Shown: positions 8,839 to 63,344 of the stretch, piece after piece
Position numbering within the stretch: position 1 is the stretch's first letter
How the letters are laid out: every line of letters starts with the position of its first letter
Origin: Chiloscyllium plagiosum
Taxonomy: Eukaryota
NCBI RefSeq assembly: GCF_004010195.1
Contig: NC_057718.1
Coordinates: forward strand, 8,925,267-8,989,266
Length of the DNA: 64,000 bases
Reading direction: 5' to 3'
Translations under genes and position numbers: made by a program
The notes under the pieces: model-generated
Seen by the model: only the letters and a program-made list of their open reading frames with translations
What the model was told of the DNA's origin: nothing
Database searches by the model: none

Positions 8839-8854
8839 TGACCAGACCGGGTTG

Positions 8855-11590: not shown

Positions 11591-11811
11591 CTTAATTATA
11601 ACTTAATTAGATTGAGTAGAGGTCCCAAGATTTGCAACATTCCTGTTCTCTTGGGCATTAATGTTCAATCTTGTCAGAAAGTACTCTGGTCACTGCCTTC
11701 CCCTTCCCTATCTCATATCGGGATTCATTTGGTTCTTTTCAATCTATACATCCACTTGCTTTCATTTTCCCCGGAACATTTAAAGAATTACTACTCATTG
11801 TGTCATTTAGC

Positions 11812-12260: not shown

Positions 12261-12750
12261 ACCCTTTGGTACAAGTCCACACCAAACATAATCCCAAACT
12301 AAACTAGTCCCACCTGCCTGCATTTGGCCCATATCCCTCCAAACTTTTCCTATTAATGTACTTATCTCAATGGCTTTTAAATGTTGTAATTGTACCCACA
12401 TCCACCACTTCCTCTGGAAGTTCATTCGACAAACAAACCACTCCCTGTATAAAAGATTTGCCCCTTATGTCTCTTTTAAATCTCTCTTTCACTTTAAAAA
12501 TATTTGCCCTAGACTTGAACTCTACCACCCTCAGGAAAAGCCACCTGCCATTCACCTCATCTATACCCTCATTATTTTATAAAGCTCTGTTAGGTCACCT
12601 CTCAACCTACAACGCTCTAATCAAAAAAGTCTCAGCCTCACGTTATAACTCAAATCCTCCATTCCTAGTAACTTCCTGGTAAATCTTTCCTGAACCCTCT
12701 ACAGCTTGATAATATCTTTCCTATAACAGGGCAACCAGAACTGGGCACAG
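12259..12750 (-). mobile_element. CR1 LINE 3' fragment
   Basis: FKVKERFKRDIRGKSF..NELPEEVVDVGTITTFK plus tail. Confidence 0.88.
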
Positions 12751-13039
12751 GAGTGGATGAATGGTGAGTGATTGCAAGAAGCTTTGTTGAAGTTTGATTA
12801 GGCTATTTTAAAAATGATATGGAATAATTCAAAATTGGTTTAAAGGTGATAGAGTTAAGTGTAGATTGAAACTCCACCGATGAAAGTGAAATAACACCTT
12901 CTCAGATTTCCCAGAAAAGACCTTTTGCATTTCGTACATAATGCAAAATGTTTTAAGCACAGTCATTCTACATAAAGGAAAGTGAAGGAGCTTACATATA
13001 ATGCATCTTTGGTGATATCTCAAGCATCGTTTAGTCAAT

Positions 13040-13460
13040 GGGGAGGCAAGGGCCTGTTGGTATTGTCGCTGGACTGTTAACCCAGAGACCCATTTAATGT
13101 TCTGGGGAAACAGGTTCGAATCCTGTTATAGCAGATGGTGGAATTTGACTTCAATAAATATCTGCCTGACCTGCTGTGCTTTTCCAGCACCACTCTAATC
13201 TCCAGCATCTGCAGTCCTCACTTTCGCCTATCTGGAATTAAGAGTCTAACGATGATCATGAAACAGTTGTCGATTCTTGGATTAACCCATCTGGGTCACT
13301 AATGTCGTTTAGGGAAGGAAACTTCCATCCTTACCCAGTCTGGCCCACATGTGACTCCAGACCCACAGCAATGTGGTTGACCCCCTAACTGCCCTCTGGG
13401 TAATTAGGGATGGGCAATAAATTTGTCTGGCCAGAAATTCTCATCCCATGAATGAATAAA
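13040..13460 (+). mobile_element. tRNA-derived shark SINE (about 350 bp) with a short PLE family A tail nested at about 13165-13228
   Basis: GGGAGGC..GGTTCGAATCC..GCAGATGGTGGAATTTG..AGGGAAGGAAAC..GTGACTCCAGACCCACAGCAATGTGG..GGGCAATAAAT; nested piece flanked by TATCTG repeats. Confidence 0.85.
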
Positions 13461-13469
13461 TCAAAACTG

Positions 13470-13610
13470 GATACTTTTGAAGTCTTTTTATTACTGTAAA
13501 GTTAGTAAGCACCCAATTTTCACACAGCAAGTTCCCACAAATAGCAATGAGACCAAAGGCTGGATATCCATCTGTGTGATGTTGGTCAAGGAATAAATGT
13601 TGGTCAGTGT
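13470..13610 (-). mobile_element. DeuSINE/SacSINE-like remnant
   Basis: Minus strand ACCAACATCAC..CATTGCTATTTGTGGGAACTTGCTGTGTGAAAATTGG resembles the AmnSINE1/SacSINE1 3' region. Confidence 0.6.
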
Positions 13611-13704
13611 TAATGGTATCTTTATTAAATTGTTATGATATATAAGAAAAGGTTTAGTCAATTAAGTAATTAACACACTGATTTGTTATTGTATCCATTG
13701 GATT

Positions 13705-14062
13705 TGGATGTCAATGTCTGGGGCAGCATGTATTGCCCGTCCTAATTACCCCCAAACTGAGTGGCTGACTAACACCATTTCTGAGGGCAGTTAAGAGTCA
13801 ACCACATTGCTGTGGGTCTGGGGTCACATGTAGATCAGACCAGTTAAGGATGGCAGATTTCCTTCCCTAAAGGACATCAGTGAGTCAGTTGGGTTTTTGC
13901 AACATTCGGCAATGATTGACATTAGGCTAGCTTTTTATTTCAGATTTTAATCAAATTCAAATACACCATCTGCCTTGCTGTGATTCAAAATCATTTCCCC
14001 TGAATGTTAGCCTGGGTTTCTGGATTATTAGCCCAGTGACATCACCTCGACACTGTCTCCCC
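13705..14062 (-). mobile_element. Same 350-bp tRNA-SINE family
   Basis: GAGGGCAGTTAAGAGTCAACCACATTGCTGTGGGTCTGG..CCTTCCCTAAAGGACA. Confidence 0.88.
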
Positions 14063-14414
14063 CAGAGACACATCCCACAAAAAATTAGAAACCGCAGGGA
14101 CCTGGGGCATAATCACGCCTCAACACCAAATTCTAAATCAACTCCCGTTGGTCTCTTTATGGGTTTTACTTTCATTACAGAAACAGGTTTTCACAGCCAG
14201 AGTTTACCAGAATGACTGGAGAGCATTATCAACCACCAGAACCACATTTTAATTTAAATGATCGGTTTTTTGGAGATTTTAGATCCAGTGTCCCTTGACG
14301 AGGTGACCTTCTGTTTAATTTGGCTGAGTTCAGTTTAGTTTGGTTAAAGTTTTGGTGTCTTTGTTTTAATTAATTTACGAAGGTGGTATAAAGAGAGACA
14401 CTTCCTGAAATAAC

Positions 14415-15045
14415 TGCAGAGGCCAGTATCTTGCCACCAAGTCACCCTTTAGTGACATGTGCACAGTATACTGGCTGTGGCCAACCAGTCCCTGAAATCA
14501 GGACTCACAAAATCTCCTGTTATTTTTTTTTCCTTTTTCTTTTTTTTAAGTCACCTTCAAGGAGGAGAGTCCTTGCACGTGTGCGCACACACACTGATCC
14601 AACTCTCAAGATAGGCAAACACCCGAGTGGCCAGTGACAAGCACTGCCCACATCAAAGGGCAGTGCTGTGTGATCAAAACAGTGAAGGGGGGGGTAGGGA
14701 CTAAATCAAAATAGAGTTGGAGGAAGAAATGATGCACTCCACTCCCTGCGGCGCCCACCTCTCCCTGAACAACTCCAGGGTGTTGGTAGACACCGCGTGC
14801 TCCTTCTCCAAGGACACCCGGGCTCTAACGTAACCGCGGAAGAGGGGCAGGCAGTCGGCCCTAACGACCCCCTCCACGGCCCGCTGCCTCGACCTGTTGA
14901 TGGCCAGTTGGCCAGAATCTCCTGTTATATCTGTCAGCCAGGGCTCCCTGACTGGCCCAGGGTAACAATCCCAATCAGGGACCTCTAGTCAATAAGATCC
15001 ACCTGATTCTAAACACTAAGCCTTCCATGACCTTCTGGGCACCAC
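14415..15045. repeat. Unclassified interspersed repeat (possibly LTR-like) hosting the Tx1 insertion
   Basis: CAGCCAGGGCTCCCTGA.TGG..CAGGG..AAGATCCACCT recurs, diverged, at about 15463-15582. Confidence 0.5.
14524..14915 (-). mobile_element. 5'-truncated Tx1/L1-clade LINE with A-rich tail and 13-bp TSD
   Basis: Open frame LAINRSRQRAVEGVVRADCLPLFRGYVRARVSLEKEHAVSTNTLELFRERWAPQGVECIIS..* (stop at 14701-14703); T-rich tract 14522-14547; TSD AATCTCCTGTTAT at 14511-14523 and 14916-14928. Confidence 0.88.
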
Positions 15046-15189
15046 AGGGACTGGGACACAGGATTAGTTACCAATATGACATTAACTTGATGCATTTCAT
15101 TTGAAATTTTAATTTGTTTTCAGTAATCCTTTAAAATATTGTCACCCCTTAATTTGTACTCTTTGTTAATAGGTTTAGTATAAAATATA

Positions 15190-15362
15190 AAGTCGCCATA
15201 GTCCTACTCATTAGAGAGGGAGGTGACTGGTGGTGGGGCCTAACCTGAGGGACAACATGCCTCGGGCGAGGTTGAGAAGGAGAGTTCTTCATGGTAATCT
15301 CAGCCAGTGTGGGAATTGAACCCATGCTGTAAGCATCACCCTTCATTACAAATGAGCTAACC
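15190..15362 (-). mobile_element. tRNA-derived SINE (possibly MetaSINE-type)
   Basis: Minus strand GGGTTCAATTCCCACACTGGCTGAGATTACCATGAAG..CCTTCTCAACCTCGCC..CCTCAGGTTAG..CACCACCAGTC; second copy at 37905-38075. Confidence 0.7.
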
Positions 15363-15999
15363 AACTCCCTTTAAAGAGAGACATTTTCCAAGACTAATGG
15401 GCATTGAAGGAATGGAGTGCTTTATCTGTCCCCCGAAACCAAATCTTAATTTAAATTTTGTACATTATGTGTACAGCCAGGGCTCCCTGATTGGTGCAGG
15501 GTACAACCCCAGTCAGGGATCACATAGTCTGCAAGATCCACCTAATTCCAATCACTAAACATTCCATGCCCATTTGAGCACCGCTACATTATATTCAGAG
15601 GTTTGCTTCTGTGACATTTTCCCTTCATGAGGCTGATATGTGGTCATTTGGTTTCATTTAAATTGATCGCTCCAACGAGTGCAGCTAGAAACTCTTCCCT
15701 GAGGGGTACTGAAAGGGGATGGAGCATACCAGCTGTCCTGACAAAACTTTAAATTTTTTTTTGTAAGTTTTCTTTCATGGTTTAATTTTTGTTGCAGTGA
15801 CCTTCGATGAGCTAGCTCCGTAAGTTAACTGATTGAATTGTTCCATTTGCCTTACAAATGAGAGAGTTCTGGGACGGTGAGGGATGTGGGAGAAGTTGGA
15901 TTGCTCTGCTGTAGTATTCTGTAACCAAACTAACTATCAAGAAAGGGATTTGTGCCCAGTATCGTACTTCACTACCTGACTTAGCGACTCATTAATCAG

Positions 16000-16860
16000 G
16001 TTTGAGGATAGATTGAAGACGTCGGAATTGTTCTCCCTGGAGAGAAGCAGGCTGCGAGGAGAGTTAACAGGGGTATCAAGACCATATGCGGGCTGGACAG
16101 AGCAAATAGGGAGAAGCTGTTCCCACTTGTAAAAAGGAACAAGAGGAAGACAACATCGATTTAAAGTTTAAAAAATCACCCAACACGAGGTTATAGTCCA
16201 ACAGGTTCATTTGGAAGCTCTAGCTTTTGTAGCGCTGCTCCTTTATCAGATGGCTGTGGAACAGGATCGTAAGATGCTGAATTTATAGCAAACAATTACA
16301 GTGTCATGCAACTGAAATGATATATTGAACAAACCTAGATTGGGGGTGTTGTATGATTTTAAACAGTTAACAGTAATCTCGGTTTGTTCAATATATCACT
16401 TCAGTTACATGACACTAATCGTTTGCTATAAATTCTGCGTCTTATGATCCTGTCCCTCAGCTACCTGCTGAAGGAGCGGCGCTCCGAAAGCTGGTGCTTC
16501 TAAATAAACCTGTTGGACTATAGCCCAGTGTTATGTGATTTTTAACTTTGTCCACCTCAGTCCAACACTGGCACCCCAAAATCATAGATTTAAAGTGACC
16601 TGCAAACAAAGGTGATGTGAGAAAAGAAACCCTTTCAACAGCAACTAGTTAGGGTCTGGAATGCATTGCCTCAAAATGTCATGGAGACAGGTTCAATTGA
16701 AGCATTCAAGAGGGCATTGGATGGCTATTTGGATGGAAATATGTGCAAGGGTACAGCAATAAGGCAGAAGGTTGGCATTAGGTAGTGATGAGCTTGTTTG
16801 AAGAGCTGGTGTAGGCAAGATGGGCCAAATGGCCTCCTTCTGCACAGAAACAATTCAGCA
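16000..16860 (+). mobile_element. Old CR1 3' fragment split by a PLE palindrome
   Basis: TTGTTCTCCCTGGAGAGAAG..GGGAGAAGCTGTTCCCAC..TCTGGAATGCATTGCC..GGGCCAAATGGCCTCCTTC. Confidence 0.75.
16168..16582 (+). mobile_element. PLE family C palindromic insertion with degenerate hammerheads and 14-bp TSD
   Basis: Arms of about 170 bp (16168-16341 and 16376-16546) are inverted; CTGCTGA-A-GGAGC(GGC)GCTCC-GAAA-GCTG at 16465-16493; TSD CAT(C/A)GATTTAAAGT at 16154-16167 and 16583-16596. Confidence 0.8.
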
Positions 16861-16964
16861 ATTCTGGGAACTTCTTTAACCAACAACCATACCTGCTGCT
16901 GTTGGCACTGCTGGTTGAGTGTTGTGAAGGTTTTCAGTGTCCAGTGGAGAAGCTGATGAAGTAG

Positions 16965-17240
16965 CTGTAGTGTCTCTGGACTAGTAATCCAGAACCCAGG
17001 GTCAAGGGTTCAACTCTTACCATGGCAGACGGTAAAGTCTGAACTCAAAAAGCTGGAGTCAGAACTTAACCAACTGATAGCTAGTGTTGATTGATGTAAA
17101 AGGAAAAATGTGTCTGGTTTATGATGAACCTGAGGAGAAAGAAACCACCATACCTTACTTGGTCTGACCTATGTGTGACTCCAGACCCACAACAATGCAG
17201 TTGGCTCTTAACTACCCTCTGGGTGGCTAGAGATGGTCAA
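16965..17240 (+). mobile_element. 350-bp tRNA-SINE family, decayed
   Basis: CTGGACTAGTAATCCAG..GGTTCAA..GTGACTCCAGACCCACA. Confidence 0.75.
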
Positions 17241-18199
17241 TGAGCAAATACAACAAGCTGGGTAGGCTGGCGGGTGTGAAAGTTCCAGACCTCTCCCAAC
17301 AATGCCTTTTCTGGGTGAATGTGTTAATTTACCAGCCGTCAGTGAGCTGCAGGCTGTTCTGTGCTTTCAGCACACAGCCATGATTTGAGATTGTGCATTG
17401 TGCAAAATCAGCTCCTGCTGCCATCAATGTTTCCAGCTCGTCCAATTGAACCGAGTCCCAGAGTTTAAGCATTAACTCCCATTGTGTAAACATTCAAACA
17501 TTTCGCAGCTTTGCTGGATTTCACTTCTTGGATTTTGTTCTTCAGAAACTCCCCACCCCCACGGCCACTCCCATTATCAGTCAACAAAATAAGAGCCACA
17601 ACCAGTACGAGACCATACCTAAACTGCTAAGCAATAGAAGGGTCAAGCAATATCTTTTTCAGTTCTGTTCCCCATTTTTGTTGACAGTTATATTTTTTGC
17701 TTGGTCGGGTCTGTCTCAACTAGTACGCAGTAATTTATTGCAAAAGCAATGCTGAAAGCTGGAGAGATCCATAAATTCAGTTTCAACAGGGTTAGAGCTT
17801 TTCAAAGAGCATTTCTAGAGATCCAGTATCACTGACATGTTTCCCATCTTTAACAAACTCTATTCTGGTGTATTGGATTATTGGCTCTTTTGTCAATGCA
17901 GTTTTAGTTGTGGAATTATTTCTTAGCCCACAAAAGATTCTTGTGTCTACATTTCAAACCAAAGATTGGAATAGAGTAGATAACCTACTTTGATTGTTGC
18001 AATCGAAGTTTCATAACTATGTAGGGAGAGGAGGTGGTATAATAGTGAAGCCAGAATTCCAGTCTAATGTTCTCGCGACATGGGTTCAAATCCATCCCAA
18101 ACCAGACGATGAAATTTTGAATTCAATACAATTGTGGAATAAAAAGGCTGGTCTAATGGAGATGGTGTCACCATTGTCAATTGTGATAAAAATTATTCA

Positions 18200-18565
18200 A
18201 TGAAGAGTTCAGGATGGCCACACCAGGAGCAGCACCATGCATTGGTCTGCATTGGAGAGGTCCAGCAAGGACTCAGAGCAGCGAGGGCATTGGTGTAGGG
18301 GAGATGGCACTGAAGAGTTGGCAACTTTTCACTTCAGCATCGGTGATGAGAGGAACCTTAGGCCTGGCCTGTGACTGAGCACTTAACAAGAAGGACTGTA
18401 AAGTTGAATACTTTTTTTCACTATTTATTTTTCTGCCTTTATATTCTATGCTTTGGTTTATTTTTCTGTGTTTTAAGATGGCGCTGGAGAATGGTGTCGC
18501 CATACAGCGTGTTACAGTGCAGTTTGTAACAAAATACTTGTGACAATAAATAAATAAAATCAAAA
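18200..18565 (+). mobile_element. Probable non-autonomous retroelement with Rex1-like 3' tail
   Basis: Ends GTGACAATAAATAAATAAAATCAAA, similar to the Rex1 tail at 8610-8638. Confidence 0.4.
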
Positions 18566-18866
18566 GAAATCAATTACTTTGCAGTAATACTCAAGTTCTG
18601 CACCATCAAACAGCCCCTTCATATAACTTCTTTGCCAAAAGTTAGGTTGAAAAGAATGCCCATGATTTCCTGTTTAAACATCAATCTGCCCAACCTTTCT
18701 GTCGTGAGTTGGCCCTTCCTGCATTCCATCTGCAGATTCTCAATGCACTGAATTAACATCCTGCAGGGAAGATGTTAACCTGGCTCCCTATCTACTCTGT
18801 TAGGTGGCTGCATCATGTCACTATTTCATGAAAAACAGGAGAATTAGTCCAATACTTTTACATCAT

Positions 18867-19498
18867 TCATAGAGATGTAAAGAGCGGAAACAGACCCTTT
18901 GGCCCAAATCGTCCATGCCGACCAGATATCCTGACCTAATCTAGTCCCATTTACCCTTCCAGCATTTGGCCCGTATCCATCTAAACCCTTCCTATTTGTA
19001 TACTTATGCAGATGCCTTTTAAATATTTCAATTGTACCAGCCTCTTCCTCTTCCTCTGGCAGCTCATTCCATACACGCTCCACCCTCTGTGCGAAAATGT
19101 TGCCCCTTAGGGCCTTTTTGAACATTTCCCCTCTCACCCTTAACCTATGCCTTCTAATTCTGGACTCTCCCACCCTAGGGAAAAGACTTTGTCTATTTAT
19201 CCTATCCATGCCCCTCATAATTTTATACACCTCTATTAGGTCACCCCTCAGCCTCCAACACTGCAGGGAAAACAGCCCCAGCCTATTCAGCCTCTCTCTA
19301 TAGCTCAAACCCTCCAAACCTGGCAACATCCTTGTAAATCTTCTTTGAATTCTTTCATGTTTCGCAACATCATTCCTACAGCAGGGAGACCAGAATTGAA
19401 TGCAGTAGTCCAAAAGTGGCCTAACCAATGTCCTGTACAGCTGGAACATGACCTCCCGACTCCTATACTCAAAGCTCTGACCAATAAAGGCAAGCACT
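18867..19498 (-). mobile_element. CR1/HER1 LINE 3' fragment
   Basis: LYRTLVRPLLDYCIQFWSP..RFTRMLPGLEGLSYRERLNRLGLFSL..RGDLIEVYKIMRG. Confidence 0.95.
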
Positions 19499-19529
19499 TG
19501 AGGGGTACAACAGTACAAAGTCTGGTTCG

Positions 19530-19665
19530 AGTATCTGGTCATTTTCATATTGCTGTTTTGTGAGATCTTGCTGTGCAATAAATTGGCTGCAGTGTTTCCT
19601 GCTTTACAACATTGATTGCATTTTGAAAAGGACTTAATTAACTGGAAAGCACTTTGGAGGATCTT
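19530..19665 (+). mobile_element. DeuSINE/SacSINE-like 3' remnant
   Basis: ATCTGGTCATT..ATTGCTGTTTTGTGAGATCTTGCTGTGCAATAAATTGGCTGCAGTGTTTCCT..AAAGCACTTTGG. Confidence 0.7.
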
Positions 19666-20599
19666 CTTTTTGCGAAAACGGGCCACCTAAGTACAGATTG
19701 TTTCTCCTTCATATCGTATAACATGGAGCACTCACTGTTCAGCTGCTCTTTTTCGGGTCTTCCTCAGTGAAAGGTTACACAGGAGGGATTTTCATCTTCA
19801 TTTTCATTTGCAAAGCGAGGACTAAGTGGAGTATCATGAACATGTGCAAGATCTGCATGTTAAGTTGAAATTCATATCACAGAGATGGCTGAAAGTTATA
19901 AATGGAGCTCAATGGCAGCGACAGTTTGCCAACTGTCTAATGACACAATTGACAAAAGGGATTGTTAACAGTAATCTGTTTACCAGGGCTCACACTGACT
20001 GACTGACTCAGGTTCCACCCCTCATGCACTGTGACTGCAGACCACATTCACTGGCCGTCTTTGTCTTGTGGCTTCTGAGTTCACTTCCTACCGATTCCCA
20101 GAACAATCAGTCACCACTCACCAACATTACATTGTCAAAGTGAGTTCAGGGGCCAAGTGGAAGGAAATAAAATGAGGCCGTGAATCTGAGTCAGGAAAGA
20201 TGGTTAGAGAAATAGTTTTCAGAATGTCACGGGGGTCATTGATACGTGCATTTGAAACTGTCCCTGCTCAGGTGACTGCATTGGGAACACACACACCATT
20301 TATAAACCACCTTTTTATAAAACTTCTGCACTTCCTTAAGCTCTTGACAGCTAATGTAATATATCTGAAGCACAGCCACTGCTGTACTGTAGCCTATTTG
20401 CACACTGCTAACTCCCACCGTAGCAATGTGAGCATCACCAGATATTCTATTTGCTGAGGAGGAAGAATTTGGTTCAACAATAATTAAACTGAAGCTAGAT
20501 GCTGTTAAGAGTTTTTCAACATTCTTTGGAGAGTGGGAACACGCTCCTGTCATCCTGACCCCCAACAGCCAAGAGGTCTGACAGTGCCTTTGGCCCCAG

Positions 20600-21132
20600 T
20601 GGGGAGGTGATGGCCCAGTGATATTATCGTTAGTTTATTGATCCAGCAACCCAGCTCACATTCTGGGGGCCTGGGTTCAAACTCTATCATGGCAGATGGT
20701 GGAATTTGAATCTAATAAAATCTGGAGTTTAGAATCTACTGATGACTGTGTAGCCATTGTCAATTATTAGGGGAAAACCTGTCTGGCTCACTAATGTTCT
20801 TTAGAGAAGAAAATCTGCTATCCTTACCTATGGGTCAGTTGGGATGAGCTATAAATGCTGTCTCTGCATTGACATCACTACCCTGTGAACAAATGACAAA
20901 AATGACTTTGAAATTTGAGCACAATAAAATGTGGAAACAATAAAAACCAAGTAACCATTGTTGTAAAAATGTCTAGTTCCCTAATGTCCTTTAGGGAAGA
21001 AAACTGCCATCCATCCCTGGTCTGGCCTACAAGTGACTCCAGACCCACAGCAATGTGGTTGACTCTGATCTATGTTTTGGGCATGGGCAATAAATGCCAA
21101 CCTGGCCATCGAAGCTAACACCTCATGAATAA
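20600..21132 (+). mobile_element. Two tandem copies of the 350-bp tRNA-SINE (20600-20890, 20950-21132)
   Basis: GGGAGGTGATGGCCCAGTG..GGTTCAAA..GCAGATGGTGGAATTTGAAT; GTGACTCCAGACCCACAGCAATGTGG. Confidence 0.82.
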
Positions 21133-21555
21133 ACTACAAAAAAAGTGCTCTCCTCAAATAGTAATGTCAAGAAAAGAGTGATGATGGGACAAGTGTCGCA
21201 CGTCCAACTCTTATCACATTAAATAACACGGAAGTGGCTCACAAATCCTGCTATCTCAGGTCCACATTGATACACGGTCTGTCCCTTGATGCAGAACATG
21301 ATAGGGCAGCGGATTCCATCTTTGGCCACTCATGAACTGCACATAGATAAAACTGACCCTCAGGACAAAATTGATGATCAATTAGTTTGGTATTCTTATC
21401 AATGTTCTTCAGGAAATGTTGTGTATTTGAGATAAGGGGTGGGTGAGAGTGAGTGAGAGAAGGTGCTATACACAATAGTGAGGATGAGTGTTGGTGGGCG
21501 GTGGGTGCAGTAACAGAGATAGAGTGAGTGTGAGCTAATGGGGAGAAGATCCTGG

Positions 21556-21745
21556 CACTTATGCTGGCGGAGTAGAGAAGGTCCATTGACCTTCTTCTTA
21601 TATTGCTGGGCATTTATCCAGGTGGTAATCTTGGACCAGACTGGCATAGTGGTCTCCATTGCCAATCCTAGCAGTATGAGGACATCTTATCTTTACATCA
21701 GACCCCCTAGCAATACCTCCAGGTCCACAGCCACAATTTCCAGCT
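21556..21745 (-). pseudogene. Decayed Myb/SANT-like (Harbinger accessory protein-like) coding remnant
   Basis: Minus strand with stops and frameshift: DLEVLLGGLM*R*DVL..TMPVWSKITTWINAQQYKKKVN-DLLYSA, matching the LEVLV..W..I...VNA..QC.KK.NDL pattern. Confidence 0.55.
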
Positions 21746-22544
21746 GCCCGTCAGGTCCAGGGCAAATGCAGGGCATCTATGGGCATTTCAGAACTTGGCA
21801 GTGTGCACCCGGCCTCTTTAAGCTGACACCAATGCTAAGGATGCCGGTTAATTCTGGGATATCTCTGCAATGGAGAGTTCTTCTGGGAATGGTGTATGGT
21901 AAGATGGGACTCAAATCAGACCAGAGGTGTGCCACGGAGGTGGGATGGATAGTTCATGAGGTTAGTGTGGTTAGATATGGTGAGTAATCTCGCTAGGCCT
22001 CTTGACACAAAGCTCTTTAAAAAAATGGCAAAACTGACACTTAGCCAAAAAAACATGGAAGATTCAACTCTTAAAGGTTACTTGATAACATTTACTCCCA
22101 AGATTTACTCCAGGTCATGTGACATTGAGAGGCAGTTAGCACAAGTGCAGGAGAGAGCTGTGAAAGTATGTTATGATGCTTTTGGTAAGGCTTCATCAAT
22201 TCTGAGCCCAAACTGTAAAGCTGATAAGAAACCGTGAATCTGACTATTCAGTTTATTTTAGGCCCTGTTAGATGTGAATCCCCAACACAACACTCTTCTT
22301 CACTGTTCATTACTGAGACTGCAAGGAAGCTAATTGTCTTTTCCTTTCTTTTATCTCTTACAAGTTCTGTACAGACATGCAAGCAATCTGCTGCCAAAGT
22401 GTGTATCAGTGCATCTTGGAGTGAGTCATGTAGAGGTTCCACACACACAAGAGATTTTCCATCCTTATTTCACTCCCTCATGGCCCTAGACCCTGAATAT
22501 CTTGACTGGACCACAACAGTGACCACCAGTGGCTCTGCTAGTTA

Positions 22545-23580
22545 ATATAGAGAGTCAAGAGAAATGGGTCTTTTTCTGGTTGGCAAGATGTGACTAATGG
22601 GGTGTCAGTTCTCAGGCCCCAATCAATTCGCAATCTATGTTAATGACTTGGATACAAGGATAGAAAGTACTATGGCCAAATTTGCAGAGGACACTAGAAT
22701 AGATGGATAACCTCACACTTAATCACACTCAGCTGATTTGCAATGAAGAAATAAGATATTTAGAAATGTATTTGGATAGATTATGTGAATGGACCAAAAT
22801 TTGGCAGATGGAGTTGAACGCGATTAAGTGTGAGATTATCCATTTTGGTCAAAGCAATAGAAAGGCAACGTATCATCTAAAGTGAGAGAAGCTTCAGAGT
22901 GTTTTGGTGCAGCAGGATCTGGGTGTCATTGTGCATGAATCGCAGAAAATACTAAAGAGGTACAACAGGTAGTAAGAAAGACAAATGGAATTTTGGCTTT
23001 TATTGCTAAAGAAGTAGAGAATTAAAATAGGGATGTGTTACTGGACAAGGCATTAGTGAGACTACACCTGGAATATTGTGTGCAGTTTTGATCTCCTTAC
23101 TTGAGGAGGGATATAGTTGTATTAGAGGTAGTTCAGAGGACACTCACTAGTTTGATTCCAGAGATGAGCAGTTTGTCTTATGGAGATAGACTGAGCTGAT
23201 ATTGGAGTTTAAAAAGATGAGCGGTGATCTAATTGAGTTATATAAAATGCACAAGGGGATTTTGACAAAGTAGATGTAGTGAAGATGTGTCCTCATGTGG
23301 AACAATCTAGTCAGAATTATTGTAGTTTAAGGATAAGGGGTACCTGATTTAAAACAGAGGTGAGGAGAAATTACTTTTCTGAAAGGGTCAAGAATCTGTG
23401 GAATTCACTCCCCCAGAGTGCAGTGGATGTTGGGACACTGAGTAAATTTAAGGAGAAGATGGACAGAATTTTCATTAGTAATGGGCTGACGAGTTATGGA
23501 GAGTGGGCAGGAAAGTGGAGTTGTACTGAATGTTGGAGCAGGCTCGAGGGGCTGAATGGCCTAATCCTGCTTCTTATATT
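22545..23580 (+). mobile_element. Old CR1 LINE RT/3' fragment
   Basis: AKFAEDT; LDRLCEWTKIWQMELN..KCEIIHFG; RRNYFSERVKNLWNSLPQSAV. Confidence 0.9.
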
Positions 23581-23639
23581 CAGTGAGGAAAGTGAACTAC
23601 AAAAGACCTACAGAAACCTTAGACTTAATCCTTCTTTTT

Positions 23640-23990
23640 AACTCATTAATGAATGTGGGCATTGCTGGCAAGGCCAGTATTTGTTGCTCATCCCTCATTG
23701 CCCTTGAACTGAGTGGCTTGCTCAACCATTTCACAGAAAGGTCAATTACATTGCTGTTGGTCTGGCCCAGTAAGGGTCCCCTTCCCTAAAAGGACATTTG
23801 TGAACCAGATGGGTTTATCCAACAATTGACAATGGACTCATGGTCATCATTGTTCTCGTAATTCTAGATTCTTTATTGAATTCCAATTCTACTGTCTGCC
23901 ACAAGTGGGACTCGATCTTGGATTCCTAGATCATTCCCTGTTTTTCCGAATTAACAGGTGAGGGATAATGTTACTAGGCCATCTCCTTCC
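23640..23990 (-). mobile_element. 350-bp tRNA-SINE family
   Basis: CTTCCCTAAAAGGACATTTGTGAACCAGATGGG..CATGGTCATCATT..CTAGGCCATCTCCTTCC. Confidence 0.8.
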
Positions 23991-26640: not shown

Positions 26641-27587
26641 TTCTGGATGTAAGTTTGCTCACTGAACTGGAAGGCTCGTACGGACCAAACATTGAACTAC
26701 AGAATCAATCATCCCAACACTCACAAACAAAGCTACATTAGAACATTATTTCAAAGACCAACCACACACTGCAGCACAGAGGAACTACACAGAGCAGAGG
26801 AAAATCACCAATACAGCGTATTCAAAAAGAACAGGTACCCAATGAACACATTCCACCGATTTCTGAGCAACAAACCCCAACAAGCAGACAAAACACATCG
26901 AGGGACCCTAGCCACTCTCCCCTACATCAAAGACATCTCGGAAATGGCTGCCAGACTACTCAGACCCCTTGGCATCATGGTAGCCCACAAACCCACCAAC
27001 ATCTTAAAACAGCAGCTAATGAACTTGAAAGACCCTACACAGACAACAAGCAAAACTAATATATTATTTACCAAATACCTTGCAAGAACTGTAACAAGCA
27101 CTACATTGGACAAACAGGTAGAAAACTAGCCACCAGGATACATGAACATCAAATAGCCACAAAAAGACATGACCCACTAGTATCTTTGCATACAGATGAG
27201 GAAGGACATCACTTTGACTGGGACAACACATCCATCCTTGGACTAGCCAAACAGGGACACGCGCCAGAATTTCTCAAAGCACGGCACTCCATCTGGAGCT
27301 CTATCAACAAACACATTGACTTGGATATTATTTACCAACCCCTGAGAAAAAGAACAGGAAATGACACCGCTGCAGGAAATGACATCACCACAGGAAATCA
27401 CATCATAAACCCAAGGAAACCCAAACACATAAATAAAAGGCAGGCCATACCACCAGTGCTTCCCTGGAAGTTCACAGATGGTGTTACCTAGTGTGGTGAC
27501 AAAACGTCTGAAAATGAACCTTCCAGCTCAGTGAGCAAACTTACATCCAAAACCTTAACCTGAGGTACAGATCTTCTCAAAACTCGC
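26641..27587 (+). mobile_element. PLE family B 3' fragment with short inverted 5' piece
   Basis: NHPNTHKQSYIRTLFQR..TLPYIKDISE..; IIYQIPCKNCNKHYIGQTGRKLATRIHEH (GIY-YIG); 26641-26677 inverts 27516-27553; GATCTCA at both flanks. Confidence 0.93.
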
Positions 27588-35849: not shown

Positions 35850-35946
35850 CACATTCCTCATGAAGGGCTTATGCCCGAAACGTCGATTCTCCCGCTCCTC
35901 AGATGCTGCCTGACCTGCTGTGCTTTTCCAGCACCACACTCTTTGA
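35850..35946 (+). mobile_element. PLE family A terminal-repeat fragment
   Basis: ATTC-CTCATGA-AGGGCTTATGCCC-GAAA-CGTC (core G mutated to C) then GATGCTGCCTGACCTGCTGTGCTTTTCCAGCACC. Confidence 0.85.
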
Positions 35947-36084
35947 CAAGAATCTTACCCACTGTCAACAAGGGATATGGGAAGAAAGTGTGACTGTAGC
36001 ATTGAGCTAGAGGATCAACCATGATTATATTGAGTAGTGAAGCAATTATGATGGCACGAATTGACAGGGTCATCACTGTTGCTT

Positions 36085-51895: not shown

Positions 51896-52635
51896 CGTGA
51901 CTTCAATGTTTGTGACACGACCCTGAATTTTTTGGGGAGTTTGTCCTGCTGGCAGTACTCAAGTCGGTATACACATTGGCAGTAATAATACAACCATCGA
52001 TACATCACTCAGAAATGGTCACTTCACCAGGATAGGCTCACGAGACTTGTAAAGGTTAGGATGAATGGCCTCAGTTAACTTACACTGAAGATGGGGAAGG
52101 CTGTGAGGAGCACTGTATTAACTTTAACTGTAACGTTTCTGAGTTTGTCATGTGGTCTAAGTAAATGAATATATAATCCAGAGAGACACATCAATACCAA
52201 GTCAAATAATGAAAGGAGTCCATGGGCATTGCAGGGGCTTGGGTTCATCATCCCAGATAAGGATATTTTGATTTTGATTAGTTTCTGTTCTAGCTTTGTA
52301 AGTTTCCATTCACTGTTCAATTTAATTTATGTTTCCAGGATTGTCTAACTCGTTTAATGCTCTTTTAAAAGAGCAGCAAGAGGCCATTTGGCCCATTGAA
52401 TCATCTTTGATGGGACGAGAGTGTCCAGCATTTTTGCCCGTATTGAATTGCCCTGGAACCGAGTGGTTTGATAGGCCACTTCAGGGAGCAGTTCAGAACC
52501 AACCACATTGACTCTCGGACTTTATGACATTGCTGTGGGTATGGAGTTGGCCAGACCAGCTAAAGATGGCAGATTCCCTTCCCTCAGGAGCACTAGTGCA
52601 TCAGATTTTTCTTTCATGACCATCGATGATTCATT

Positions 52636-53016
52636 GTTGAAACTTTATTGCTGGAACAGCACAGCAGGTCAGGCAGCATCCAGGAAACAGGAGATTCGAC
52701 GTTTCGGGCACGAGCACTAGTGCATCAGATTTTTCTTTCATGACCATCGATGATTCATTCTTGATCACGAATTCCACTTTTCATTGAAGTCGTTTTCTAA
52801 CCAACCTGTTCAGAGATGCTCACTGATACTTCCAAGGAAGAGATAAGGTAGCTAGCCAACAACTTCCTCATGGTGGGGGAGTCTAAAATTATAGAGTTTA
52901 AGGTGAGAGGGGAGAGATATAAAAGGGTCCAGAGGGGCAATTATTTCACACAAATGGTGCTGTTCCAGCAATAAAGTTTCAACTTTGATCTCCAGCATCT
53001 GCAGACCTCACTTTCT
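52636..53016 (+). mobile_element. Complex PLE family A insertion containing a copy of its own target region; 15-bp TSD
   Basis: TSD CATCGATGATTCATT at 52621-52635 and 53017-53031; inverted PLE piece 52636-52711; captured target 52712-52959; PLE tail 52960-53016. Confidence 0.85.
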
Positions 53017-53139
53017 CATCGATGATTCATTCTTGATCACGAATTCCACTTTTCATTGAAGTCGTTTTCTAACCAACCTGTTCAGAGATGCTCACTGGTA
53101 CTTCCAAGGAAGAGATAAGGTAGCTAGCCAACAACTTCC

Positions 53140-53435
53140 TCATGGTGGGGGAGTCTAAAACTATAGAGTTTAAGGTGAGAGGGGAGAGATATAAAAGGGT
53201 CCAGAGGGGCAATTTTTTCACACAAATGGTGATGTGTGTCTGGGAAGGGCTGCCAGAGGGAGTAGTGGAAGTGACTACAATCTTGTTATTTAAGAGACAT
53301 TTAGACAGGTATATGGATGGGATAGGTATGGAGGGATATGGACCAAACACAGGCAAATGGGACTAGTTTAATTGTAAAAACTGGGCAGCATGAGTAAGAT
53401 GGGCCGAAGGGCCTGTTTCCATGCTGTAGACCTCA
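53140..53435 (+). mobile_element. CR1 3' fragment
   Basis: FKVRGERYKRVQRGNFFTQMVMCVWEGLPEGVVE..FKRHLDRYM. Confidence 0.9.
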
Positions 53436-54269
53436 GTGAGATGGGACTTGAACCCAGGCTTCCTGACTCACAGGTGGGGGACATTACCACTGATCCACAA
53501 CAGGCCCTTAAACAACAGTGCAAATGAGATCTCTGGGCATTTAACTCATTGCTACTTATGCAAACAGAAACAAGAAGCTGGAAATATTCATGCCAAGGCA
53601 GCATCTGCGGTGAGTTACTGTCCTGAATTAGACCTGTCCCTAAGGCAGCGGGTCAGACAATGAGGGGGCTGGTAAAATAATTCCCCAGTGCAGTCCCACT
53701 GCCAGGGAGGATGCCCAGCATCTGGCAGGAGTTGGCACTGGGTGCATTCCATATGCAGGGAATGTATATATTTAAAGCATCCATTAGGATGCATCACCTG
53801 GAACCAATGGCATTTGGACGTTGGCTGGATGACCCCATAAGGAGGTCAACAGAGGCAGACTTCCTGAGAGCCCAGGGAGAGGATGAGCCTATCAGAACCA
53901 GAGAGTCCATCACCCAATCAGGAGATTGCAGACATAGAAGGCTTAGATGACCCTCCCCCAGAGGGATTTCCACCCAATTGATGGGGCCTTTTGCCCCCAG
54001 CCATCCTGAATGTATTATATGTACTTACCTAAATAAGAGTAACTCCATCTGGAGACCCTTAAGTCCCCAACTGCCTTCAGTAGCAGCCACATATCCCAGT
54101 TGAGCTGCTGAGACAGCGACCCTCTAAGAGCCATCCAGCCATCTTTAATTGAACCTGGAGGAGACCCTGAGGTGAGCTAGCCCAGTAAAATCAGATGGTG
54201 GTATGGAGATACTTGCATTTGCTGATACATATTAATATCTCGATCTTGGGGTGTGCAGAGGACATTTTC

Positions 54270-56668: not shown

Positions 56669-57204
56669 GACTCTGTTTCACTCCCCACAGATGCTGCCAG
56701 AGTTTCTCCAGAACTTTGTATGGAAGGAGTAATGATGAACTTGAACCTCTGTGGTTTTATGTCCGTTTTCTAGCAACCACTGTGCTTAGCTTTTTATCTT
56801 AATATTCCTCCGTCAGTTAACATAATTATAAACAGCTTTGGTTATTATTGCATTGTTGACTGAGAGGGAAAGTTGATATATCCTCATTGTTAATGGCTTG
56901 TTACTGGTAGTATTCAGATATTCAAGTGAAGGGACTTGCTTAATTAGGTACTCAGAGCACTTAGAAAGAGAAACTGCTATGATTGGTGGGCACCATTGAG
57001 GCTCAAGTTCACCATTACTCCTTCCATACAAAATTACATTTCAACTGAAATTTAGGAAGTTTCCCACAAATTTTCCTTTGGAAACTAGATTTGCTGCTTC
57101 TTTAAGGGGCTGTCTTCTGGTTCATTCAATTTAAACTGGTTTATTTATTTTCTAAAGAGTACAAAGACAGTTCACTACAATTCTGAGCCAACGAGTTTGC
57201 TGCT

Positions 57205-57648
57205 GACACCACCATTATAGATCAGATCTCAAACAACGACAAAGGTGCATAAAGACAACAAGCTCTCCATCAACGTCAGCAAAACAAAGGAGATGGTCAT
57301 TGACTTCATGAAGCCAAGTGGAGGACACTCCCCTGTCTGCATCAATGGTGCTAAGTTGGAGATGGTCAAGAGCTTCAAGTCCCTGGGAGTGATGATCACC
57401 AACAGTCTGTCATGGCCCACTCACTGCAACGGTATGGTCAAGAAAGTACAATATCACTCAGGAAACTAAGAACATCCAGCATGTTGACAAGGACTTGGAC
57501 CAAGCTGTAGAGATGCACCATTGAAAGCATCCTATTCGGATCAATCACAGCTTGGTATGGCAAGTGCTTTGGCCACGATGACCAGAAACCACAGAGAGTT
57601 GTAAAAACAGCCCAGTCCATCACACAAACCAGCCTTCCATCAATTGAG
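57205..57648 (+). mobile_element. Rex1/Babar LINE fragment
   Basis: NKLSINVSKTKEMVIDF..INGAKLEMVKSFKSLGVMITNSLSW. Confidence 0.9.
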
Positions 57649-57765
57649 GCAGAAGTGGGTACTGCAGATGCAAGAGGTTAGAGTCAAGATTAGAGTGGTG
57701 CTGGAAACGCATAGCAGGTCAGGCAGCATCCAAGGAGCAGGAAAATCAACTTTTTGGGCAAAGGC
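57649..57765 (-). mobile_element. Short PLE family A tail with 16-bp flanking direct repeat
   Basis: CCTTCCATCAATTGAG at 57633-57648 and 57766-57781. Confidence 0.85.
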
Positions 57766-58329
57766 CCTTCCATCAATTGAGACAGCCTGAGTCAAAAAAG
57801 GTTTTGATGATACTGCAAAGCCAGATCTTCAATAGTGAAGAATTTGAAATTATTGTAAAAATAGGTAGAGGTTTGTCCGGGTTTAATATTGGCATTATAT
57901 GTTGCCATTATACAAAGAGCAATCAGGCAGCGTACATGGTACAGTAGCCATGTGAACCCACTGCAAACATTTGCAAAATCCATTGCTGTAATGAGTGCCC
58001 ACTGCTGTCATTGTTGGATATTACATCACCTGAAATTTAGGTGTAATGCTGTGACCAATCTTTCATCCTATGTTGGTCTAGAGGCTTTGTGCTGGTCTAT
58101 GCTGAAGGATCAACCACAAGTAAGTCGGAGGCTGCTGTCTTAAGTAACAGAAGATAGATTATTAATGCTAATAACTGGAAACGTGTTACATTAATACCAG
58201 GGCGCATTGCTTAATACTAAGACGAGGTCAGTAAGTCATCATGTCTCCATGAGGGAATTATGTCTAACAGGTGTTTGCCAAATTGCCCAATGCTTAATCC
58301 AGTGGTTGGGTTAAATATCAGAATGGGGA

Positions 58330-58518
58330 GGACTCCAGGTTAGAGTCAAATGAGAGTGGTGCTGGAAAAGCACAACCGATCAGGCAGTATCCGAGCAGCA
58401 GAAAAATCAATGATTCGGGCAATAGCCCTTCATCAGGATTTTCCTACTCCTCGGATGCTGCCTGACCTGCTGTGCACTTCCAACACCACTCTAATCTTGA
58501 CTCTGATCTCCAGCATCT
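58330..58518. mobile_element. PLE family A head-to-head palindrome
   Basis: GAGTGGTGCTGGAAAAGCAC..GCCCTTCATCAGG inverted against CGGATGCTGCCTGACCTG..CACCACTCTAATCTTGACTCTG. Confidence 0.82.
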
Positions 58519-60720: not shown

Positions 60721-62455
60721 GTGGGGCTTGCTGGATGAGGGGCTGATTACTGTCTGTTACAGGGGTGGTTGTAGGAATTGATTACACTGTGGAAGTGTAA
60801 GGGGGAAGGCTCTCACAGAGTCCTCTCTTGTCAGAAATACCAAATGCTTGGCTGGAACTGAAGTGGGTTCAGAAAATAATGTACTTGATGTACATAAAAT
60901 AATGTCATTTCACAAGGTGATTTAAAAACAGAGATTTTTATCTTTTTGTGATGAATTATATGGTGATCTTTAATACGGAATGTTACTGTGTCTGTTTTAG
61001 TGTCATTAGTGTCTGGGGTAAAATTAATTTTCTAAAATGGAGTCACACTGGAAGATTGCCTGGGAAGCGTTGGTCCACACATCACTTTTTCCTGAGTTCA
61101 CTTACCCCTTAAGAATATGAGCTTCTTGTGTAATGGAATAAAATTGTTTATCTTTCCTTAAAATGCTCTTCCCTAGGTGATTAGCAGCAGAATTGAAAGG
61201 AGGACTGTGTCGACATGTGTTTCTTTTTATCTATAAAGCCGGCATTTGCAACCTCCTGCTGGTGCCTGTGTATCATTACCTGCTTTAGGACTCCCTCAGG
61301 GCTATGAACATATGAACAATGAACAAGAGCAGACCATTCGGCCCTTCTAGCCAGCTCCGCCATTTAGTAAGATCATGGCTGGTCTGATATCAATCTCAAT
61401 TCTACATTCCGGCATACCTCCAATAATCTTTCATCCCCATGGTAACCAAGAATCTATTGTGCTCTGCCTTAAAAGCAATTCAGCAATTTTGCATCTATTG
61501 CTTGTTGAGCAATGGAATTCCAAAGACTCTCAACCCACTGACAGGAAAATACATTTCCTCACCTGTTTTACATGGATGACCCTTAAACTGAGGCCTGTAG
61601 TGTAGGCCGGGTGGTCTACCAGGAGTATTAAGTGTCCAGGCACATTAAGGATGCAGGGGTATTAAGAGTCATTTTAAAGGGACGTAGGGAGAGAATTAGA
61701 GTCTAGGGCCAGTGTTGCTGAAGGCACAGCCTCCATTGAAGAAAAGGAAGAATATTCATAAGATCATCAGAACTAGGAGCAGGAGTAGGCTATGTAGCCC
61801 ATCGAGCCTGCTCTGCCATTCAATAAGATCACAGCTGGTCTGATTTTAATCTCAACTCGACGTTCCTGCATCTCCCGATAATCTTTCATCACTTGGTGAT
61901 CAAAAATCTATCTCCCTCTGCCTGAAAAATATTTAAAGATTCTGCCCCCACTACCTTTTGATGAAGGGTATTCCAAAGGCTCACGCCCTTCTGAGAGAAA
62001 AGACATGTTTCTCACCTCTCTGTCAAATGGGTGCCCCATTGTATTTAAACTCTAACTCTCTCGTTCTAAACTTCCCCACAAGGGAAACACTCTTTCCACA
62101 TCCACCCAGTCAAGTCCCCTCAGGATCTTAAACGTTTCAATTCAGTCACCTCTGACTCTTCTAGGATACTTCACAACAATACTGGCCTTGCCTTTTCTCA
62201 TAAGGCAATCCAGTCAGTCCAGATATTAACCTAATAAACTTTCTCTGAACTACTTCCAATATATTAACTTCCTTCTGTAACTATGGTGAGCAGTACCATA
62301 TGCTGTACTCCAGCTGCAATTGAACCAATGATCTGTAAAACTGAAGCATGACCTCCACACTCTTGCATTCAATTCCCCTTGCAAGCAACAGAACAATCTG
62401 TTTGCTTTCCTGATGACTTGTTGTACCTGTACACTAACTTTCTATGATTCATTTT

Positions 62456-62666
62456 GAGAGCATGGTGCTGGAAAAGCACAGCAGGTCAGACAGCATCCGA
62501 GGAGCAGGAGAATCGACACTTCGGGCATAAGCCCCTCATTCCTGATGAAGGCCTTATGCCTGAAACGTCGATTCTCCTGCTCCTTGGATGCTGCCTGACC
62601 TGCTGTGCTTTTCCAGCACCACACTCTCGACTCTGATCTCCAGCATCTGCAGTCCTCACCTTCTCC
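62456..62666 (+). mobile_element. PLE family A head-to-head palindromic insertion
   Basis: 62456-62534 inverts 62550-62628; approximate TSD TTCTATGATTCA (62440-62451) / TTCTGTGATTGA (62667-62678). Confidence 0.88.
62538..62573 (+). ncRNA. Minimal hammerhead ribozyme motif (PLE family A)
   Basis: AUUC-CUGAUGA-AGGC(CUUAU)GCCU-GAAA-CG-UC-GAUU: intact core, 4-bp stem II, GUC cleavage triplet. Confidence 0.72.
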
Positions 62667-63344
62667 TTCTGTGATTGAGGCATTAGGACACTCAGATCCC
62701 TCTGCTCCCTCTATGCTCTTTAAGTTATTTTTTATTGTGCTGTAGGGACGGGTCAAGTGGAACAGGAGAATGGAACAAAGGCAGGTGCTATATCTATCAA
62801 TGACACATGCAAGGAGGTCACAGATATTACTGCGGCTCACAATCGGGTCAACTACCTCCCTAAAGACCAATGGTGAGAGCGAGCAGGTTCAGGACAGCAA
62901 CATGATGTCATGGTGCCTTCGAGAAGAAAAGCAAGACTTGCATTTATGTAGTGTCTTTCCCCACCTCAGGCTGTCTCACAGTGCTTTCCAGGCGATGAGG
63001 TACTTCCAGGAGGGTAGTGACTGCTGCAAGATGGGGAGTAGCCCCAGTATAAGAATATTCTGAAGGCCCGTGTTAAAAACTTTGCAAGATGCCAGGCTTG
63101 AAGACCAACATTCCTGAAGAAGTTCATGAGGAGGACAGTCATTATCTTTTGCTGCAAAATGCGGTGAGATAAAGACCATGGGTTGACGCTCAACAAACTG
63201 CTTGAATATCAAGCTGGCTCAGCCACCATTAGGACTTTCACCTGATGTTACAACTCGATTAGTCTGAGGTGTCTTTGATGGACATTGGCCAGCTAGCGGA
63301 AACCTTTCCAGGCAGACTCTCCTGCAACTAACACAGTTTTTTAG

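What the first reader, a model, noticed from the sequence alone, without database searches (positions are those of the whole stretch)
52588..53231. PLE insertion that captured a copy of its own intact target site
Seen in sequence: the locus reads A-T-[inverted PLE piece 52636-52711]-A-T-B-[PLE tail 52960-53016]-T-B. T is the 15-bp TSD CATCGATGATTCATT, A is 33 bp of left flank and B is about 200 bp of right flank. The insert therefore holds an uninterrupted copy (52712-52959) of the pre-insertion locus spanning the cut site. Junctions show short microhomology (GTG|CTGTTCC at the 3' junction, GCAC/GAGC near the 5' junction). The two B copies differ at 3 positions, which argues against a simple assembly duplication. 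Inference: template switching from element RNA/cDNA onto the intact target (sister chromatid, homologue or local transcript) and back during integration or repair. This would be a route for PLE-driven local duplication.
Basis: partly seen in the sequence, partly recalled or inferred. Interest (0 to 1): 0.72.

Follow-up and report, generated by a model that had tools for sequence, protein, structure and literature searches.

The report
Penelope insertion holding its own target
A tiny jumping-gene insertion carries, between its two halves, an unbroken 248-base copy of the very site it cut, most likely because copying briefly switched onto the uncut target, a rare by-product that is known from human L1 elements and is seen here once in a Penelope-like element.

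Summary
The locus reads A-T-[inverted pLTR stub]-A-T-B-[direct pLTR stub + 34-nt tail]-T-B. Without the middle 248 bp it is an ordinary Penelope-like mini-insertion, like two others in the window. Contigs from two related organisms suggest an empty site (letters not shown).

Best reading (about 0.6): both target strands primed reverse transcription, and one short cDNA jumped by 3-4 nt of microhomology onto an uncut copy of the target, copied through the cut site, then joined the other cDNA. The not-yet-nicked strand of the same duplex would suffice; no sister or homologue is required.

The three B differences do not exclude a two-allele artefact (alleles differ by 0.2-0.5%). The near-zero homology at both new junctions is the stronger argument. 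No junction-spanning contig was displayed, so an artefact stays open (about 0.1).

The closest known case is L1 templated insertion (22 among 3,611 solo L1s). This scan's unchecked notes list three other local captures in Penelope-like copies of this genome, none described as spanning its own cut site. New variant of a known kind; one event.

The parts
52588..52620 (+). A, 33 bp of original left flank (donor of the start of the captured copy)
   Evidence: exact match to 52712-52744
52621..52635 (+). T, left target-site duplication (15 bp, ends in ATT); its 3' end is the inferred top-strand primer
   Evidence: three identical copies; 5'-ATT-3' is the site most often cut by the anole PLE protein in vitro (PMC11167929)
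52636..52715 (-). Inverted, 5'-truncated pLTR arm (76 bp, 80 bp with the probable GAGC microhomology). It starts at the family's internal end point, so it has no tail, and stops in the loop of hammerhead stem II
   Evidence: 76-90% identity to 7 family copies over 62-73 bp; alignment; hammerhead register; contig pile-up and family continuation behind 52711
52712..52959 (+). Captured uninterrupted copy of the pre-insertion site: A (52712-52744), T (52745-52759), B (52760-52959); 248 bp, direct orientation
   Evidence: an organism C contig carries A-T-B in one piece over 52712-52857 (record 3)
52957..52983 (+). Direct pLTR stub, the mirror of the outer 24-27 bp of the inverted arm; 52957-52959 (GTG) is shared with the end of B
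   Evidence: inverted repeat I1
52984..53017 (+). 34-nt 'tail', present on this side only; its last C is shared with T
   Evidence: 64-160 contigs per run go loose behind 53017 with agreement 0.36-0.37 in 4 of 4 runs
53017..53031 (+). T, right target-site duplication; inferred bottom-strand primer
53032..53231 (+). B, 200 bp of original right flank (donor); its distal part lies in an older LINE-like 3' fragment (about 53130-53430; the label CR1-like is recalled, from no call)
   Evidence: window copies 70-82% identical

Best explanation
A real, lineage-specific, dead-on-arrival Penelope-like mini-insertion whose two halves were joined through a templated copy of its own target. Steps: (1, inferred) The element's endonuclease nicked both strands 14-15 nt apart. 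(2, inferred from anatomy plus in vitro work on a reptile PLE) Each 3' end primed reverse transcription of pLTR RNA, one at the tail end (58-61 nt, direct stub) and one at the internal start 34 nt upstream (76-80 nt, inverted arm). (3, inferred) The two cDNAs did not join each other near the hammerhead as in the ordinary copies. Instead one cDNA end annealed by 3-4 nt to an intact copy of the target and was extended 248 nt through the cut site. (4, inferred) That strand annealed to the other cDNA by the second microhomology and gaps were filled. The template had to be continuous across T. My order of likelihood: the opposite strand of the same duplex before the second nick (for example the inverted-arm cDNA slipping 48 nt back to the start of A), then a sister chromatid, then a nascent transcript read by the reverse transcriptase. 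Shown: the structure, junction microhomologies, tail, TSD and family context. Not shown: timing, template and polymerase. It has no function beyond being a footprint; it adds 396 bp, 263 bp of them host sequence.
For: Removing 52712-52959 leaves the canonical TSD-inverted arm-direct arm-tail-TSD unit (PMC3846280, PMC8557442); the other 2 inverted+direct units of this family in the window have that form with nothing between the arms. Both arms carry the same subfamily signature and are identical over their overlap, and no other window copy has it: one donor, one event. The arms end at family end points: 53017 and the internal point where the tail-less copy at 35850 also ends. The anole PLE protein cuts and extends both strands and starts at two sites that bracket the tail (PMC11167929). 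Both new junctions have 3-4 nt microhomology (chance 0.05 and 0.016 each), while the element and the empty site share at most 7 exact bases anywhere, far too few for a graph assembler to join them. The copies differ at 3 of 272 paired positions (1.1%) against 4.0% and 4.3% to organisms B and C. Changes fall on both copies: 2 inner (older repeat copies carry the outer letter in 4 of 5 and 6 of 6) and probably 1 outer. In run X15 the bin over inner B is 1.7-2.1 times flank depth after a median background correction (weak).
Against: No contig spanning either new junction was displayed for organism A: 32 pieces were shown and 74,884 hidden; 15 joints were shown and 265 hidden. In both organism A runs nothing was laid over 53094-53102, so the outer copy's G at 53098 was not seen outside the window. 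The window has N gaps, so it is a scaffolded assembly. The depth hint falls to 1.0-1.3 times flank at the largest background ratio seen, and the tool says depth is no copy number. The empty-site letters in B and C were not printed. The 4-nt microhomology at the 5' junction assumes a donor loop sequence that no other window copy has exactly. No RT or GIY-YIG coding sequence could be tied to this family by a search. Sequence cannot separate 'during integration' from 'soon after'.
Confidence: 0.62

Rival explanations
1. Secondary repair: an ordinary inverted+direct insertion came first. Its palindrome later broke near the centre, and the break was patched by microhomology-mediated template switching onto the empty allele on the homologue (MMBIR or polymerase-theta type; general knowledge).
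For: The canonical unit is a hairpin-forming inverted repeat (62456-62628, 87% self-complementary). The direct stub (58-61 nt) is shorter than in the other two units (about 134 and 81 nt). A homologue template would supply some of the 3 differences at birth (alleles differ by 0.2-0.5%).
Against: It needs two rare events at one site. Ordinary homologous repair from an empty allele would delete the element, not embed the allele (general knowledge). The inverted arm (76-80 nt) is close to normal length (about 83 and 98 nt), so little secondary loss is needed.
Confidence: 0.15
2. Assembly chimera of two haplotypes: a filled allele (A-T-arm-arm-T-B) with the empty allele (A-T-B) pasted into its middle by the assembler or gap filler.
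For: Scaffold with N gaps. The 3 differences are compatible with two alleles (P 0.012-0.15 by sample and length). Junction-spanning contigs were not displayed, and the G at 53098 was not seen in 2 of 2 organism A runs. Short-read assemblies are known to struggle with PLE inverted structures (PMC8557442).
Against: It needs two new junctions with only 3-4 nt overlap (longest shared word 7 nt) and no N between them. In 2 of 2 organism A runs no piece longer than about 80 nt was listed across T-B, whereas B and C each gave one (120 and 146 nt), as if the graph branches there in A (the tool warns that a hole proves nothing). The depth hint of about two copies in X15 (weak).
Confidence: 0.1
3. Two half-insertions, each healed separately with its own long duplication: the inverted arm flanked by a 48-bp duplication (A-T) and the direct stub flanked by a 215-bp duplication (T-B). 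The central A-T-B is then the resealed original site and not a captured copy.
For: The sequence parses this way exactly. Duplications over 50 bp (median 900 bp) flank Dualen LINE insertions, and 126-bp ones flank R9 (PMC9977147, passage). An unchecked note reports a roughly 311-bp duplication around a fungal PLE pair (e1-7508860).
Against: Both halves come from one subfamily, are identical in their overlap and sit 14-15 nt apart in the canonical arm/tail arrangement, so they are not independent. If made by one complex, loops on both strands must both be kept, otherwise replication separates them onto sister chromatids (inference).
Confidence: 0.1

Closest known systems
Templated insertions in somatic human L1 (bioRxiv 10.1101/2024.08.27.596794; also PMC11702581, PMC10191854)
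   Same: Non-element DNA from beside the insertion site is copied into the new insertion and duplicates it. Templates are typically under 250 bp and within 15 bp of the site (22 cases among 3,611 solo L1s; an SDSA-like switch of the growing cDNA is proposed there, citing Gilbert 2005). PMC11702581 has 3 insertions with DNA templated from near the site. PMC10191854 has 52-220 bp of extra synthesis and one co-inserted local pre-mRNA.
   Different: A different element class (no poly-A; both priming sites fixed by the tail). A germline event, not tumour or cell culture. The copy sits between the two cDNAs and runs straight through the cut site. Whether the L1 cases span the cut could not be checked, because the supplementary figures were not available.
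Canonical endonuclease-positive PLE insertion: inverted 5'-truncated pLTR, direct pLTR, one-sided 30-40-bp tail, TSD (PMC3846280, PMC8557442, PMC11167929)
   Same: Inverted arm without tail, direct arm with a 34-nt tail, 14-15-bp TSD ending in ATT, remnant of the minimal hammerhead.
   Different: The arms are not adjacent; 248 bp of target lie between them. No ORF.
Host DNA framed by Penelope pLTRs in Adineta vaga (PMC3846280)
   Same: Non-element DNA between pLTRs inside a TSD, with an empty allele.
   Different: There a host gene or unique spacer from elsewhere lies between direct pLTRs and is read as mobilisation in trans. Here the cargo is the insertion site itself, between an inverted and a direct stub, so it cannot have been carried in on the element's RNA from a source copy.
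Long target-site duplications of Dualen and R9 LINEs (PMC9977147, passage)
   Same: Retrotransposition duplicates tens to hundreds of bp of flank.
   Different: There one duplicated block flanks the element. Here two overlapping blocks are duplicated, T is present three times and an intact site survives inside.

Membership tests
Penelope-like element (endonuclease-positive) | ORF with PLE-type RT and GIY-YIG endonuclease | tested here: inconclusive
   No coding sequence at the locus. A 49-aa stretch upstream of the family copy near 48750 had no Pfam match and no homologue at E<=10 among 4 candidates. The GIY-YIG hit at 27060-27266 (E 5e-05) belongs to a different repeat family.
Penelope-like element (endonuclease-positive) | Minimal hammerhead motif in the pLTR with an extra nucleotide before stem II (PMC4209133) | tested here: met
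   3 family copies in the window have the core, extra A, 4-bp stem II and GAAA; the inverted arm keeps the 3' half. Rfam gave no hammerhead match (4 weak miRNA matches only). Cleavage was not tested.
Penelope-like element (endonuclease-positive) | Inverted 5'-truncated copy at the 5' side | tested here: met
   52636-52711/15; the same form at 58340-58518 and 62455-62667
Penelope-like element (endonuclease-positive) | 30-40-bp tail on one end only | tested here: met
   34 nt, 52984-53017; family end pile-up at 53017
Penelope-like element (endonuclease-positive) | Short TSD at an AT-rich site | tested here: met
   14-15 bp ending in ATT; a 15-16-bp TSD also flanks the copy at about 57650-57780
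L1-type templated insertion | Local genomic DNA (typically under 250 bp, within 15 bp of the site) copied into the insertion | tested here: met
   248 bp overlapping the site; definition from 10.1101/2024.08.27.596794
L1-type templated insertion | Made by L1 ORF2p (poly-A tail, TTTT/A site) | tested here: not met
   No poly-A; ends are PLE tail ends. It works like one but is not an L1 product.
L1-type templated insertion | Formed during integration | not testable with these tools
   Needs de novo events or population alleles.
pLTR-framed mobilisation of host DNA in trans (Adineta Pen1/Pen3a) | Cargo from another locus between two direct pLTRs | tested here: not met
   Cargo is the target itself; one arm is inverted.
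Microhomology-mediated (polymerase-theta-type) templated insertion | Short microhomology at both junctions | tested here: met
   3 nt shown and probably 4 nt. The defining sizes are from general knowledge; only search listings were seen.
Microhomology-mediated (polymerase-theta-type) templated insertion | Dependence on polymerase theta | not testable with these tools
   Needs genetics.

The most novel reading that the evidence does not exclude
Penelope-like integration in this genome runs through a sequentially nicked intermediate in which a stalled short cDNA regularly jumps onto the not-yet-cut strand (or the nascent RNA) of its own target. Such captures would then form a countable class among a very large number of copies, and their asymmetry (here 33 bp on the arm side, 200 bp on the tail side) would record which strand is nicked first. 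That would give the first in vivo readout of the undefined second half of the PLE transposition cycle and a steady source of small local duplications.
Probability: 0.3. Interest if true: 0.62.

Novelty: new variant of a known kind. Interest (0 to 1): 0.38.

Why it matters
The steps after first-strand synthesis in PLE transposition are stated to be unvalidated (PMC11167929). A copy that runs unbroken through the cut site puts a hard constraint on the intermediate: some strand spanning the site was intact while a cDNA end was free. It also supports building the inverted arm at the target from a second primer, in contrast to the self-priming on an antisense template proposed in PMC3846280. As a single locus it has no evident function and duplicates only old repeat DNA. 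Its value is as a seed for a genome-wide census that could tell nick order and template type.

Tried and rejected
No whole genome is held for the window, so no genome-wide census was possible. Scans for more family loci gave 0 matches in viral contigs, 0 in metagenome contigs with the tail motif, and 4 with a shorter motif that matched only over 22-25 bases and were dropped as unrelated.

Rfam found no hammerhead or other relevant family. Pfam on the 150 longest of 246 stop-free, mostly non-repeat segments of 55 aa or more gave 2 of 150 hits, both RVT_1, and no host exon. The other 96 were not scanned, so a host gene and its strand remain unknown. A protein search for the family's coding end found nothing.

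Read laying at likeness 90 was swamped by repeat contigs (8,803-23,733 laid per run), so the junction question did not complete directly. 4 of 22 runs were laid and the three raw-read runs were not. The lack of cover at 53094-53102 in organism A and the lack of long pieces across T-B are holes, not proof.

A pre-existing tandem duplication with later element insertion was rejected: it cannot give three T copies with element ends exactly at two of them, and relatives show one site. Error-prone copying of the insert was not supported: 2 changes are inner and probably 1 is outer.

Literature searches for a PLE precedent: 0 papers with all 6 terms; 17 listed of 18; no title or abstract start points to one; 0; PLE papers; the five opened, two at length and three by term search, showed none. 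The library lacks most subscription papers, and Gilbert 2005 was not held. PMC12016303 and 10.64898/2026.07.22.740005 were searched by term and had nothing on local templates.

Full report
OBSERVATION. A-T is a perfect 48-bp repeat (52588-52635 and 52712-52759). T-B is a 215-bp repeat (52745-52959 and 53017-53231) with three mismatches, and T occurs three times. Apart from these two blocks the 64-kb window has no direct repeat of at least 50 bp at 93% identity or more. The two element pieces belong to a repeat family with nine other copies in the window. They share a subfamily signature found in no other window copy and are identical across their 24-bp overlap.

THE ELEMENT. Three family copies carry a minimal hammerhead core with the extra base before stem II, the pLTR mark described in PMC4209133 (passages seen). 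The direct stub extends 34 nt beyond the point where the inverted arm starts. This is the one-sided 30-40-bp tail of PLEs (PMC8557442, passages; PMC3846280, parts 1-4 of 5 read). Contigs from 4 of 4 runs go loose behind 53017 with unrelated AT-rich sequence, so that is the family's 3' end. The tail-less copy at 35850 stops at the same internal point as the inverted arm. Two other units of this family (58340-58518 and 62455-62667) show the ordinary form, arm against arm with nothing between. So 1 of 3 such units in the window holds a capture. I could not tie an RT or GIY-YIG sequence to the family, so PLE membership rests on the non-coding anatomy.

JUNCTIONS. At 52959|52960 the end of B and the element share GTG, and 6 of 7 bases with those that follow. 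At 52711|52712 there is no shared suffix as drawn. In register with stem II, though, the first four bases of A (GAGC) continue the element: GC is a stem position, and the copy at 3668 has all four. I infer a 4-nt microhomology. Chance for at least 3 and at least 4 nt at a random junction is 0.05 and 0.016. The arm stops in the loop of the hammerhead hairpin.

RELATIVES AND AGE. I laid 4 of 22 listed runs, all contigs. Record coordinates run in each record's own direction, as record 9 shows. That is the length expected if it continues into A and the left flank, where the previous contig stops at 52579. Both fit empty sites, but the letters were not printed. The window differs from B by 41 of 1,030 and from C by 47 of 1,086 flank bases, while the duplicated blocks differ at 3 of 272 paired positions. 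The event is therefore roughly a quarter as old as those splits. Two changes are in the inner copy: older repeat copies carry the outer letter in 4 of 5 and 6 of 6 cases. One is probably in the outer copy: organism B reads A at 53098, but inside a cluster of five differences.

IS IT REAL? This was not shown directly. The window has three N gaps. The read tool displayed 32 pieces and hid 74,884, and none of those shown spans a new junction. Nothing from either organism A run was laid over 53094-53102. The stronger argument is that an artefact needs two new junctions without N, between sequences that share at most 7 exact bases, placed inside an otherwise perfect insertion. Two weak hints agree. 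No piece longer than about 80 nt was listed across T-B in either A run, though B and C gave one each. Depth over inner B in run X15 is 1.7-2.1 times the flanks at the median background ratio, but only 1.0-1.3 times at the largest of 14 ratios. I leave 0.1 for an artefact.

MECHANISM. The purified anole PLE protein cuts and extends both target strands, prefers 5'-ATT-3', and starts at two RNA sites that bracket the tail; later steps are stated to be unvalidated (PMC11167929, parts 1-2 of 4 read). That accounts for the outer anatomy: nicks 14-15 nt apart, a 58-61-nt cDNA from the tail end and a 76-80-nt cDNA from the internal start. The middle needs a template continuous across T. Once both nicks are made and extended, neither strand of the target is continuous, so either the nicks were sequential or another molecule was used (inference). 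The most economical path is: first nick, short cDNA, a jump of 3-4 nt homology onto the uncut opposite strand, 248 nt of displacement synthesis through the site, then the second nick and cDNA, annealing at the other microhomology, and fill-in. Either cDNA could be the jumper; the arm-side one needs to slip back only 48 nt. A sister chromatid gives the same product. So does a nascent transcript. Run X15 covers this locus about 26 times more deeply, relative to repeats, than run X2, which may mean transcription or another enrichment; its library type is not on record and no host exon was found. Rivals: later breakage of a hairpin insertion patched from the empty homologue (0.15), two separately healed half-insertions with 48- and 215-bp duplications (0.1), and an assembly chimera (0.1).

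COMPARISON. It works like an L1 templated insertion. There, 22 cases were found among 3,611 somatic solo L1s, typically under 250 bp and within 15 bp of the site, and explained by an SDSA-like switch (10.1101/2024.08.27.596794, passages and the end of section 4). Three more cases are in PMC11702581 (passages and section 7), and 52-220 bp of extra synthesis plus one local pre-mRNA capture are in PMC10191854 (passage). It is not an L1 product. For PLEs, host DNA between pLTRs is described as mobilisation in trans from elsewhere (PMC3846280), which differs from copying the target. My searches found no PLE case of a captured target. The library omits most subscription papers, Gilbert 2005 was not held, and the supplementary figures that would show whether L1 inserts span the cut were not seen.

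EARLIER NOTES. Unchecked notes on the same genome list three other local captures in PLE copies: 143 bp from 1.3 kb away between the arms, 85 bp from 0.7 kb away, and part of a neighbouring PLE 1.1 kb away. None is described as spanning its own cut, and I tested none. A sequence look-up and a nearby look-up found nothing. They are leads for a census, not support.

VERDICT. A correctly seen, probably real, single complex PLE insertion: a new variant of a known kind. It is mechanistically informative because the copy crosses the cut site, but it has no evident function and no frequency estimate. Interest 0.38; 0.62 if a census shows a recurrent, polarised class (probability 0.3).

Noticed in passing
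window 62441-62454 and 52622-52635: The left flank of the canonical unit at 62455 ends in the same 10 bases as T here, right before the inverted arm. This may hint at a target preference longer than ATT; it rests on two sites only.
   Followed up: no
window 53137-53756: The organism B contig joins 53136 to 53757 (record 26), so about 620 bp, including most of the old LINE-like fragment, are absent in B but partly covered in organism C: probably a deletion in B.
   Followed up: no
window 51900-54100, runs X15, X5, X6, X19: X15 covers the unique flanks about 26 times more deeply relative to repeats than X2. Two small runs of one study hold about half of the stretch's words while a third holds 0.02. 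This may reflect tissue-specific transcription or another enrichment.
   Followed up: partly
window 26641-27560 and 4164-4540: A second PLE family: 26641-27560 has a short inverted arm and a GIY-YIG remnant (Pfam E 5e-05); 4164-4540 has 96% identical inverted arms around a 14-base N gap.
   Followed up: partly
window 57633-57785: A direct-only copy of the family with a 15-16-bp TSD whose end resembles the element's own hammerhead core, so the 5' junction used homology to the target.
   Followed up: no
window 56712-56755 and 56992-57035: A 44-bp inverted repeat (89%) around 237 bp with no match elsewhere in the window; not of either PLE family.
   Followed up: no
window 35850-35950: A direct copy that ends at the internal start point and lacks the tail, matching the second reverse-transcription start seen in vitro.
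   Followed up: partly
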